Source: Eledone cirrhosa
Taxonomy: Eukaryota
NCBI GenBank assembly: GCA_964016885.1
Contig: CAXHJY010000802.1
Location: 1-26,815, forward strand
Direction of reading: 5' to 3'
DNA length: 26,815 bases
The position numbers were made by a program, and so were the translations under genes. Each line of letters starts with the position of its first letter. The first letter of the stretch is position 1. Of this stretch, positions 22,661 to 24,817 are shown piece after piece. The notes below the pieces were generated by a model that had not been told where the DNA came from, searched no databases, and worked only from the letters and a program-made list of their open reading frames with translations.

Positions 22661-22823
22661 AGTTTATCCAGGGTTCAATCGGGGGTAACCGCAGTAAGTA
22701 AGGTACTCAATACATGGCGGCGTATAGATATTTCATATAGAAATGGCTTCTACATGACTAGATCTGTTTCATTCGGGAGAAATTCTACCGAATGTAACAG
22801 TTCTTGTCCTGTAGAAGCCATTT
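22661..22823 (-). mobile_element. TA-anchored Penelope- or retrozyme-like terminus ending in a fold-back hairpin (22741-22823)
   Basis: Starts at a (CA)n(TA)n run. The 36-bp arms 22741-22776 and 22788-22823 have 4 mismatches, with a further AGAA/TTCT pair inside. The minus strand of the left arm has GAAAC-AGAUCUA-GUC directly after the apex stem. Confidence 0.55.
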
Positions 22824-22826
22824 ATA

Positions 22827-23298
22827 CAGTATTTCTCCACCCTATCACCATAATTAACCACACAAAAAATCAATTAAACGAGCCTATAACTTTAAACTGT
22901 ACCTATGAAGAAACAATAGATAAATAAATGATAGCTATTTTATCCGCGATCAAAAGCTACAGCATATTTACCTACTATTTCTAATAGCCCGTAGAAATTG
23001 ATTAGACATATAGCCAACCATACACAATTAGGTACAAAATCGAATAATTTTGGTATCTTTATGTACATTTTTTCTTCTAACATTGATTTTGTACCTAATA
23101 GTGTATGATTGGCTATATGTCTAATCAATTTCTACGGGCTATTAGAAATACTAGGTAAATCTTCTGTGGCTGTTGATCGCGGATAAACCAGCTTTCATTT
23201 ATTTATCTATTGTTTCTTCATAGGTATATTTCAAACTTATAGCCTCGTTTAATTGATTTTTTGGTGGTTAATTATGCTGATTGGGACGAGAAATACTG
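22827..23298. mobile_element. Tc1/mariner-type MITE (472 bp) with ~215-bp terminal inverted repeats
   Basis: TA|CAGTATTTCTC ... GAGAAATACTG|TA. Arms are 22827-23041 and 23085-23298 (19 substitutions and 1 indel by manual count) around a 43-bp spacer. TA duplication and CAGT ends are characteristic of Tc1/mariner. Confidence 0.75.
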
Positions 23299-23456
23299 TA
23301 TATCTTTTATCAAATGATTCTGTGGACTTACTTTCTTATATATTGCTCTGATATTTAATTAATTAATTCGCCATTGAACCACACCGTGAATGGTTGCCAA
23401 AAACACATATATATCTATATATCTCTGGCTCTGTCTATTGTATGTATATGTAAACA

Positions 23457-23570
23457 TATATATATATATATATGTATATATATATATATATATATATATA
23501 TATATATATATATATATATATATATATATATATATATATATATATATATATATATATATATATATATATA
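23457..23570. repeat. (TA)n microsatellite
   Basis: Seen directly. Confidence 0.97.
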
Positions 23571-24470
23571 GAAAGGATGAATATAAAATGAAAGTGCTTT
23601 TGTTAAAAAAGGAATTTATTAGGTATTGACATATGTTTCTGTAACAGACCGAATACCTATGTATCGCTGCTTGCGTAATCATATAATGTTAGCAAGTATT
23701 CGATAGCAAATGTATAATCAGTTGTCACTTCTTCAGAGATTTTGGATAAACTGGATAAAATCAGAAAAATTGAAGTATTTATATTAGTAAAAGAGGAAGG
23801 AACAGAGGGGATAGAATATGACAGATGGTAAAATAATTTACTGCTAAACAAGTATATAATGGGTTTTTAATGAGAATACCATGAGTAAATCTAAATAAGA
23901 ATTTTGGGGGTGCCGATTTTAATCTCTACTTGACCAACTGGACAGTGGACAGGGCTGGTCATTTGGTGCAGTAGTATTAATCATAAAGTGTCAATTGGGG
24001 AAGGGGGAGATTTCGATTGCAATCGAAATCTCCCCCTTCCCCAATTGACACTTTATGATTAATACTACTGCACCAAATGACCAGCCCTGTCCACTGTCCA
24101 GTTGGTCAAGAAGAGATTAAAATCGGCACCCCCAAAATTCTTATTTAGATTTACTCATGGTATTCTCATTAAAAACCCATTATATACTTGTTTAGCAGTA
24201 AATTATTTTACCATCTGTCATATTCTATCCCCTCTGTTCCTTCCTCTTTTACTAATATAAATACTTCAATTTTTCTGATTTTATCCAGTTTATCCAAAAT
24301 CTCTGAAGAAGTGACAACTGATTATACATTTGCTATCGAATACTTGCTAACATTATATGATTACGCAAGCAGCGATACATAGGTATTCGGTCTGTTACAG
24401 AAACATATGTCAATACCTAATAAATTCCTTTTTTAACAAAAGCACTTTCATTTTATATTCATCCTTTCTA
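23569..24470. repeat. 902-bp spacerless palindrome (451-bp arms)
   Basis: Axis between 24019 and 24020 (GATTTCGATTG|CAATCGAAATC). Identical mirror ORFs 23657..23851(-) and 24188..24382(+). One mismatch found (A23928/A24111). Confidence 0.97.
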
Positions 24471-24684
24471 CATTTCTCCGGAATATAATTTATACTCGTT
24501 GAGCAAACCTGCACGTACGCTGTTCATCTCTAACGTAACGATATATTATTACTACATTATTGATAACCTGAAATTTTATATATATATATATATGTTTACA
24601 TATACATAAAATACAGAGCCATAGATTTATAGATATGTGTTTTTTGCAACCATTCACGGTATATATATAAATATATATATATAT

Positions 24685-24817
24685 ATAGGAACGAGTAGGA
24701 CCGCGACGGCTGAGCCGTCGGGGTCCTACTCGTTCCTATTACCCACTCTACTACCCTAAGTAGTGAGTACTTTGGTGCGTTATGGTCTATCTGGTTCCTT
24801 ACCACATTTCCTTCGTT
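24685..24817 (+). mobile_element. TA-embedded GC-rich element remnant starting with a 27-bp-arm hairpin (24685-24739)
   Basis: ATAGGAACGAGTAGGACCGCGACGGCT-G-AGCCGTCGGGGTCCTACTCGTTCCTAT, with one G.G mismatch (24703/24721). Second small hairpin at 24745-24768. (TA)n on both sides. Confidence 0.55.

What the first reader, a model, noticed from the sequence alone, without database searches (positions are those of the whole stretch)
22661..24817. Cluster of four adjacent fold-back structures with a shared TA-anchored architecture
Seen: hairpins centred at about 22782, 23063, 24019/24020 and 24712 sit almost back to back within 2.2 kb, while the rest of the window shows only one small comparable hairpin. 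Three follow the plan TA run - long arm - apex with 0-1 nt loop - shorter or decayed arm - TA. Inference: a recurrent snap-back (self-primed) synthesis during integration of ribozyme-bearing elements at TA runs, or repeated hairpin-capped break repair at a (TA)n fragile site. Penelope-like elements are known to generate inverted pseudo-LTR copies.
Basis: partly seen in the sequence, partly recalled or inferred. Interest (0 to 1): 0.75.

Follow-up and report, generated by a model that had tools for sequence, protein, structure and literature searches.

The report
Penelope retroelement stubs stacked in TA
The four hairpins are separate, cut-short copies of four common repeat families, two tied to Penelope-like retrotransposon genes and two likely Penelope-derived, lying in one TA microsatellite; their folded-back shape likely arises because the element is copied twice, once from each end of the cut DNA, and the two copies are joined head to head.

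Summary
All four hairpins are real. Each belongs to a different high-copy family. H3 is the 3' end of a young Penelope-like element (3,115-bp unit, 781-aa RT plus GIY-YIG protein) with the Hydra-clade motifs. An H4 relative is joined to a similar endonuclease gene. H1 and H2 relatives carry hammerheads, H2 as a non-coding ~0.7-kb tandem unit. No in-window copy keeps an intact hammerhead.

Every family has two fixed ends at (TA)n, an outer end E and an inner end X 70-110 nt upstream. In H3, 32 of 33 facing junction pairs are X-E and none is X-X. The inner ends vary independently: the inverted arm is the longer one in 18 of 42 pairs and stands alone in 22 of 70 loci. Snap-back alone cannot give that; two-ended priming from two start sites can.

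Such hairpins occur about once per 10 kb in this genome (41 in 400 kb), so four in 2.2 kb is a tail event, not a special locus. Inverted Penelope ends are known, and the scan noted one before in another genome (e1-9828984). The near-strict X-E pairing may be new. No long reads confirm this locus.

The parts
22636..22660 (.). (TA)n run, left target of H1
22661..22826 (-). H1: truncated end of a hammerhead-bearing family. Tail 22661-22737, sense arm 22738-22781, 1-nt loop, inverted arm 22783-22826. Holds only the 3' half of the hammerhead
   Evidence: (2,441 candidates, 40 scored; best 29 others 91-94%)
22823..23455 (+). H2: truncated copy of a ~0.7-kb non-coding tandem unit. Inverted arm 22823-23045 (outer 41 nt missing), spacer ~36 nt, sense arm 23082-23343 (X at 23343), tail 23344-23455. 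The sense part starts just downstream of the family's hammerhead cut site
   Evidence: (6,457 candidates, 40 scored)
23456..23570 (.). (TA)n run between H2 and H3
23571..24577 (+). H3: young truncated Hydra-type Penelope-like insertion. Inverted arm 23571-24019 starting at X, 0-nt apex, sense arm 24020-24468, tail 24469-24577 ending at E
   Evidence: (40 of 40 scored hits 100% identical over 445 nt)
24578..24594 (.). (TA)n run right of H3
24595..24659 (-). 65-nt copy of the H2-family tail in opposite orientation (86% to 23384-23454); likely a fifth, solo insertion
24660..24687 (.). (TA)n run left of H4
24685..24816 (+). H4: truncated end of another family. Inverted arm 24685-24711, 1-nt loop inside the family's hammerhead stem III, sense arm 24713-24739, tail 24740-24816
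   Evidence: (1,383 candidates, 40 scored)
24817..24979 (.). (TA)n run, right target of H4

Best explanation
The cluster is five separate, 5'-truncated pieces of four repeat families (H3 and H4 linked to Penelope-like genes, H1 and H2 likely non-autonomous derivatives) in one (TA)n tract, and each hairpin was likely made by two-ended target-primed reverse transcription. Shown: family membership, TA targeting, two fixed termini per family, head-to-head geometry, independent inner ends in H3, X-E pairing, shared variants between arms. Inferred: the GIY-YIG endonuclease cuts both strands of the TA run; one DNA end primes copying at the outer site E and the other at the inner site X, 70-110 nt upstream on the same or a sister RNA, each helped by a terminal TA; the two cDNAs stop, and their ends are joined, mostly through 1-15 nt of microhomology. 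The stretch copied twice is the palindrome and E-to-X is the unpaired tail. When both copies stop at the same place, such as a template end or a family-specific stop, the loop is 0-1 nt. Each insertion leaves TA runs on both sides, so later insertions can pile up there.
For: Longer H3 copies are 3,115-bp tandem units with a 781-aa ORF bearing RWK, DKT, YRDD, CxCx5C, CxxC and CxH, the Hydra-clade features in PMC8557442 section 11. Exact TA junctions genome-wide: 534 at X, 626 at E, 0 in the reversed-pattern controls. On C1, 33 facing pairs among 167 junctions: 32 X-E, 1 E-E, 0 X-X; p=4e-9 against free choice. Of 42 paired loci, the sense arm is longer by >35 nt in 16, the inverted arm in 18, and they are within 35 nt in 8. 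22 of 70 X-started arms have no sense partner, 16 of them running into TA. Inner joints: 31 of 42 overlap by 1-15 nt, 6 blunt, 5 with inserts. The two arms share 87 non-reference bases and differ at 53; an arm is closer to its own partner than to the median other copy in 15 of 17. H1, H2 and H4 also show two termini. L127 joins an H4-type tail (90%) to an endonuclease fragment 41% identical to P0001 with no TA run between. Canonical hammerheads occur in 17 of 30 H1-like and 13 of 30 H2 loci, with 0 in antisense controls and compensatory changes in stem I. In vitro, the Anolis Poseidon protein cuts and extends both strands and starts at two adjacent RNA sites that define the tail (PMC11167929).
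Against: Near-perfect palindromes are in excess in H3 (6 of 42 within 10 nt, 0.6 expected, p=5e-5), which snap-back also predicts, as it does the shared variants. PMC11167929 saw no strand difference in start-site use and no homology to the cut DNA, whereas here X and E pair non-randomly and end in TA. 101 of 167 C1 junctions had no exact-match partner. E-E palindromes exist (5 of 59 H4 inserts, 1 of 34 H1 inserts). No ORF was found attached in sense to H1 or H2. The H3 family's hammerhead-like motif lacks a paired stem I. Shared variants could partly reflect conversion between arms after insertion. Loci were picked by junction patterns or best hits, not at random.
Confidence: 0.72

Rival explanations
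1. Snap-back: one cDNA started at E folds back, copies itself and stops or is cut at X (the first reader's idea; self-priming was also proposed for Adineta Penelope palindromes).
For: Excess of near-perfect apices. Arms share variants. X-E pairing follows naturally. The H4 apex lies in a self-complementary ribozyme stem. PMC3846280 discussion proposes self-priming.
Against: Does not explain inverted arms longer than the sense arm (18 of 42) or arms with no sense partner (22 of 70). By established knowledge, a 0-nt loop cannot prime by simple fold-back. In H1, 29 of 32 copies stop 120-150 nt from the 3' end whether or not they are paired (the query forced at least about 121 nt), so a shared stop explains tight apices without fold-back.
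Confidence: 0.18
2. Hairpin-capped break repair at a fragile (TA)n site duplicated whatever DNA lay next to the break.
For: The window's hairpins lie next to TA runs and three have 0-1 nt loops.
Against: The arms hold only element sequence, end at family-fixed bases in hundreds of loci and carry a fixed one-sided tail. No unique flank is duplicated.
Confidence: 0.03
3. Unrelated MITE or foldback DNA transposons with terminal inverted repeats.
For: High copy number, long inverted repeats, TA flanks.
Against: Inner ends vary from copy to copy, one end carries a tail, tandem units occur, and the coding partner is RT plus GIY-YIG. H1 and H2 relatives carry hammerheads.
Confidence: 0.03
4. The hairpins are assembly or library fold-back artefacts on a small unplaced contig.
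For: The window is a 26.8-kb stretch starting at base 1 of contig C829. No laid read or contig spans the stretch. H3 is 99.8% symmetric.
Against: Arms differ by 0.2-14%, end at the family's fixed sites and have different flanks. The same plan occurs on the large contigs. Raw reads of two other samples under the same species label show the H4 inner end running into TA (655 and 531 reads).
Confidence: 0.04

Closest known systems
Hydra-clade Penelope-like elements (Craig et al. 2021, PMC8557442; e.g. Hydra-1_Obim, Penelope-13_HM)
   Same: Single RT plus C-terminal GIY-YIG ORF with RWK, DKT, CxCx5C, CxxC and CxH; (TA)n insertion; 5'-truncated inverted copy at the 5' end (noted for Penelope-13_HM in File S1); H1 and H2 hammerheads of the same CTGATGAT...TGAA form as most entries of File S2.
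   Different: The H3 unit is 3.1 kb (paper: generally under 3 kb); its hammerhead-like motif lacks stem I pairing; tails are 70-110 nt against the 30-40 bp the paper gives for Penelope-like elements in general. No tree with the reference sequences was built.
Anolis Poseidon PAc in vitro (Frangieh et al. 2024, PMC11167929)
   Same: Two reverse-transcription start sites bounding the tail; both target strands cut and extended; AT-rich target; predicted dimer; ribozyme cleavage not needed for insertion.
   Different: There, no strand difference in start-site use and no homology to the target; here X and E pair in 32 of 33 cases and the sites end in TA. The parts read give no model for the inverted arm.
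Adineta vaga Penelope palindromic junctions (Arkhipova et al. 2013, PMC3846280)
   Same: Head-to-head inverted pLTR with a palindrome at the junction and a tail on one side.
   Different: Explained there by self-priming, possibly on an antisense template; the arm-length data here argue against that as the general route.
Non-LTR retrozymes (bioRxiv 10.64898/2026.07.22.740005; first fifth read)
   Same: The H2 family is a non-coding, tandem, type I hammerhead-bearing unit with Penelope-like ends.
   Different: H2 copies also form inverted X/E insertions; the window copy is a truncated monomer without the ribozyme. Circular RNA was not tested.

Membership tests
Penelope-like element (EN+) | Single ORF with RT and C-terminal GIY-YIG endonuclease | tested here: met
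   H3 family: 781-aa stop-free frame with YRDD and IVY...YVG; 45 relatives at 28-38% identity. Pfam gave no hit at a curated cut-off. H4: endonuclease fragment only. H1, H2: no attached ORF found.
Penelope-like element (EN+) | Tandem or partial-tandem units (pLTRs) with an inverted 5'-truncated copy | tested here: met
   3,115-bp tandems with inverted arms in L031-L034; H2 tandems of about 0.6-0.8 kb
Penelope-like element (EN+) | Tail present at one end only | tested here: met
   Two termini in all four families; tails of 70-110 nt, longer than the published 30-40 bp
Hydra clade | RWK instead of GxKF/Y; DKT instead of DKG | tested here: met
   RWK at 46, DKT at 128, no GxKF
Hydra clade | CxCx5C linker; CxxC and CxH near the C terminus; no CCHH | tested here: met
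   CxCx5C at 639, CxxC at 737 (the only one), CxH at 765; a single Cys inside the GIY-YIG core
Hydra clade | (TA)n insertion | tested here: met
   534 and 626 exact TA junctions
Hydra clade | Canonical type I hammerhead in the pLTR | tested here: inconclusive
   Met for H1-like (17 of 30 loci) and H2 (13 of 30). H4 has a U3-A8 variant in L127 and a C3-A8 mismatch in L086 and L011. H3 has the core and stems II and III but only 1 bp of stem I. Rfam found none.
Hydra clade | Placement in an RT tree with reference Hydra elements | not tested
MITE / TIR DNA transposon | Fixed symmetric TIRs around a fixed interior; transposase partner | tested here: not met
   Variable inner ends, one-sided tail, RT partner
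Non-LTR retrozyme (H2 family) | Non-coding tandem units with a type I hammerhead | tested here: met
   Longest stop-free frame 65 aa in a 704-nt unit; most of 30 loci are preceded by the previous unit's tail; hammerhead in 13 of 30
Non-LTR retrozyme (H2 family) | Self-cleavage and circular RNA | not testable with these tools
   Needs RNA data or an assay

The most novel reading that the evidence does not exclude
These families record an obligatory two-ended integration. One RT dimer on one RNA primes from both ends of the cut (TA)n, one subunit fixed to the outer start site and one to the inner. This single rule would produce the tail, the head-to-head inverted pLTR, the solo inverted arms and the zero-loop palindromes (both cDNAs ending at one template point) of Penelope-like elements, with no self-priming. 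The young H3 family, with uninterrupted 781-aa frames, would be a direct system for testing it.
Probability: 0.45. Interest if true: 0.65.

Novelty: new member of a known kind. Interest (0 to 1): 0.36.

Why it matters
The cluster itself is ordinary for this genome. What matters is the family behind it. How Penelope-like elements make their inverted repeats is stated as open in PMC8557442 and PMC11167929. A young family with over 500 exact junctions of each type lets the models be told apart by counting, and the counts favour two-ended priming with complementary start sites. These insertions also look like a major source of long palindromes here (about one hairpin per 10 kb, 25 of 41 at TA runs), which repeat annotation could misfile as MITEs or miRNA hairpins.

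Tried and rejected
Rfam found no hammerhead in the window or in 8 loci at E<=1 (mostly miRNA-type hairpin matches, all below gathering score), so a descriptor search was written.

Pfam did not recognise P0001.

Search for a second haplotype or empty site: both flanks are single-copy in the assembly, so target duplication or deletion cannot be read; TA runs would hide it anyway.

Sequencing runs: no RNA holder listed. The laid contigs and RAD reads are too short and multi-mapping to confirm the locus.

Search for coding partners of H1 and H2 (30 loci each): endonuclease fragments lay in opposite orientation or behind a TA run, so no link was counted.

The idea that X is set by hammerhead cleavage was rejected: cut-to-X distance is about 15-20 nt in H1 and H4, about 65 nt for the H3 motif and about 300 nt in H2.

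Literature searches 'Penelope-like + twin priming' (3 listings, none about this by title), 'Penelope-like + head-to-head + target-primed' (0), 'Penelope-like + cryo-EM + dimer + retrotransposon', 2024 on (3 unrelated listings) and a six-term palindrome search (2 review listings) found no report of X-E pairing. Subscription papers are not covered. PMC13282606 (passages) gave nothing on structure.

Full report
Observation. Self-comparison of the masked window finds four strong fold-backs, all within 22,738-24,739, plus one weak hairpin at 1655-1721. Arm alignments: H1 44-nt arms, 1-nt loop, 6 mismatches; H2 about 220-nt arms, 86% alike, about 36-nt spacer; H3 449-nt arms, no loop, 1 mismatch; H4 27-nt arms, 1-nt loop, 1 mismatch. 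Each has an unpaired tail on one side that ends at a TA run. A fifth piece, 24595-24659, is an inverted copy of H2's tail.

Is the cluster more than chance? In 40 evenly spaced 10-kb stretches of the genome the same detector found 41 hairpins. 25 of 41 abut a TA run, against 115 of 6,276 control points; the densest stretch had 3 within 2 kb. A Poisson estimate gives 0.3% per 27-kb window and about 380 such clusters in the genome. The TA association is strong. The cluster is a tail event of a genome-wide process.

What the pieces are. Each hairpin is a copy of a different dispersed family: 1,658, 6,457, 1,383 and 2,441 first-look candidates for H3, H1+H2, H4 and H1, with 40 scored in each search. 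H3 is the 3' end of a young element: 40 of 40 scored hits are 100% identical over 445 nt, and longer copies are 3,115-bp tandem units with inverted arms and a 781-aa stop-free frame. The protein has RWK, DKT, YRDD, CxCx5C, CxxC and CxH and no GxKF. These are the features given for the Hydra clade in PMC8557442 section 11, which also reports (TA)n targeting. An H4-type tail (90%) is joined without a TA run to an endonuclease fragment 41% identical to P0001 in L127; L198 shows a weaker second case. H1-like loci (about 80% to H1) carry a canonical type I hammerhead in 17 of 30 and H2 loci in 13 of 30, none on the antisense strand, with compensatory stem I changes between subfamilies; ten further hits came from H1-type inserts in the earlier loci. 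Their form matches the Hydra entries of File S2. H2 is a ~0.7-kb non-coding tandem unit. No coding partner was found for H1 or H2, so their assignment rests on ribozyme type and architecture. No in-window copy has an intact hammerhead: H1 and H4 keep the 3' half, H2 starts just after the cut site, and the H3 motif lacks stem I.

Two fixed ends. In all four families the distance from a core motif to the next TA run is bimodal (these loci were partly chosen by junction queries, and for H2 the second mode falls at a TA run inside the tail). For H3 the genome holds 534 exact junctions at the inner site X and 626 at the outer end E. On contig C1, 167 listed junctions form 33 facing pairs: 32 X-E, 1 E-E, 0 X-X; 101 have no exact-match partner within 12 kb. 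Free choice of site by each end is rejected (p=4e-9).

The inner ends. I examined 70 of the 80 X junctions on C1: the first 30 with 1.5 kb and 40 with 6 kb; four already met and the last six were left out. They gave 30 complete pairs, 7 pairs running off the locus, 5 complex pairs, 16 solo arms ending in TA (one, L176, hides a 12-nt tail piece), 6 solo arms ending in other DNA and 6 arms running off. Among 42 pairs the sense arm is longer by more than 35 nt in 16, the inverted arm in 18, and 8 are within 35 nt; 6 are within 10 nt against 0.6 expected by permutation. Joints overlap by 1-15 nt in 31 of 42. In 16 of the 30 complete pairs with enough overlap, plus the window copy, the arms share 87 non-reference bases and differ at 53, so both arms likely come from one source. 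In H1, 29 of 32 copies end 120-150 nt from the 3' end, at the 5' edge of the hammerhead, paired or not (the query forced at least about 121 nt); H4 copies found beside other families cluster at 125-143 (13 of 26 sense arms). So apices recur at family-specific points in H1 and H4 but not in H3.

Mechanism. A cDNA that folds back cannot copy sequence it does not contain and cannot leave an inverted arm alone. Both outcomes are common, so snap-back is not the general route. The simplest reading is two-ended target-primed reverse transcription: both strands of the TA run are cut, one end primes at E and the other at X, and the cDNA ends are joined head to head. This extends the in vitro result for Anolis Poseidon, where both strands are cut and extended and two start sites bound the tail (PMC11167929, parts 1-2 of 4 read). 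It departs from that result in the strict X-E pairing and the TA at the start sites. Tight apices such as those of H1, H3 and H4 would arise when both copies stop at one point; snap-back (proposed in PMC3846280, passages read) cannot be excluded for that class. All of these steps are inferred from genomic copies.

History of this locus (inferred). H1 and H2 (arms 85-86% alike) are the oldest and meet at a 4-nt TATA overlap, with 41 nt of H2's inverted arm and any TA spacer lost. H4 is younger. H3 (one change between arms) is the youngest and sits in the TA run between H2's tail and the inverted H2 tail piece.

Reality of the assembly. No long reads were available and no empty allele was found. 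Raw reads of two other samples under the same species label show the H4 inner end joined to TA in 655 and 531 reads. That supports the architecture, not this locus.

Verdict. Known kind of element and known kind of structure, with new families. The scan recorded a similar head-to-head Hydra-type stub in another genome (e1-9828984); I did not check that locus. The X-E pairing and arm-length statistics were not found in four literature searches and are the part worth following. Papers seen: PMC8557442 (passages, section 11, supplement search and part 2 of 59), PMC11167929 (parts 1-2 of 4; supplementary figures not seen and may bear on strand and site use), PMC3846280 (passages), PMC4209133 (part 1 of 4; source of the U3-A8 variant), bioRxiv 2026.07.22.740005 (part 1 of 5; supplements closed), PMC13282606 (passages).

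Noticed in passing
window 16590-17135 (+): Decayed 3' end of a LINE-like ORF (frame with HDRAAQYIH and ADIIL...LLIDMSVP; stops at the ends and near the middle) between (AAG)n and (TAA)n/(AAG)n runs. The label Dong/R4-type restriction-like endonuclease is recalled, not tested.
   Followed up: partly
window 1-61 (-): tRNA-like match cut by the window start (Rfam 31.6 bits); possibly a SINE head.
   Followed up: no
window 10087-10288 and 14159-14365: Two copies of a ~205-nt repeat, 81% alike; looks like a SINE.
   Followed up: no
window 8502-8614 and 22400-22519: Two copies of a ~115-nt repeat, 76% alike; the 22.5-kb copy draws deep read cover, so it is a further high-copy family.
   Followed up: no
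window 1655-1721; L124 next to its H1 copy: The weak fifth hairpin resembles by eye a short hairpin joined to the H1 copy in L124; it may belong to another small fold-back family.
   Followed up: no
H3 family, about 288-290 nt from the 3' end (L178, L180, L188, L198, L214): Several arms end at nearly the same base beside a short direct repeat; possible stop hot spot.
   Followed up: partly
L128:1-3782: Near-perfect tandem array with a 468-bp period (99.9%) next to H2 tandems.
   Followed up: no
L127, L258, L251, L283, L274 and other loci: Many further fragments 25-64% identical to P0001 lie near TA runs, so the genome holds several more related families.
   Followed up: partly
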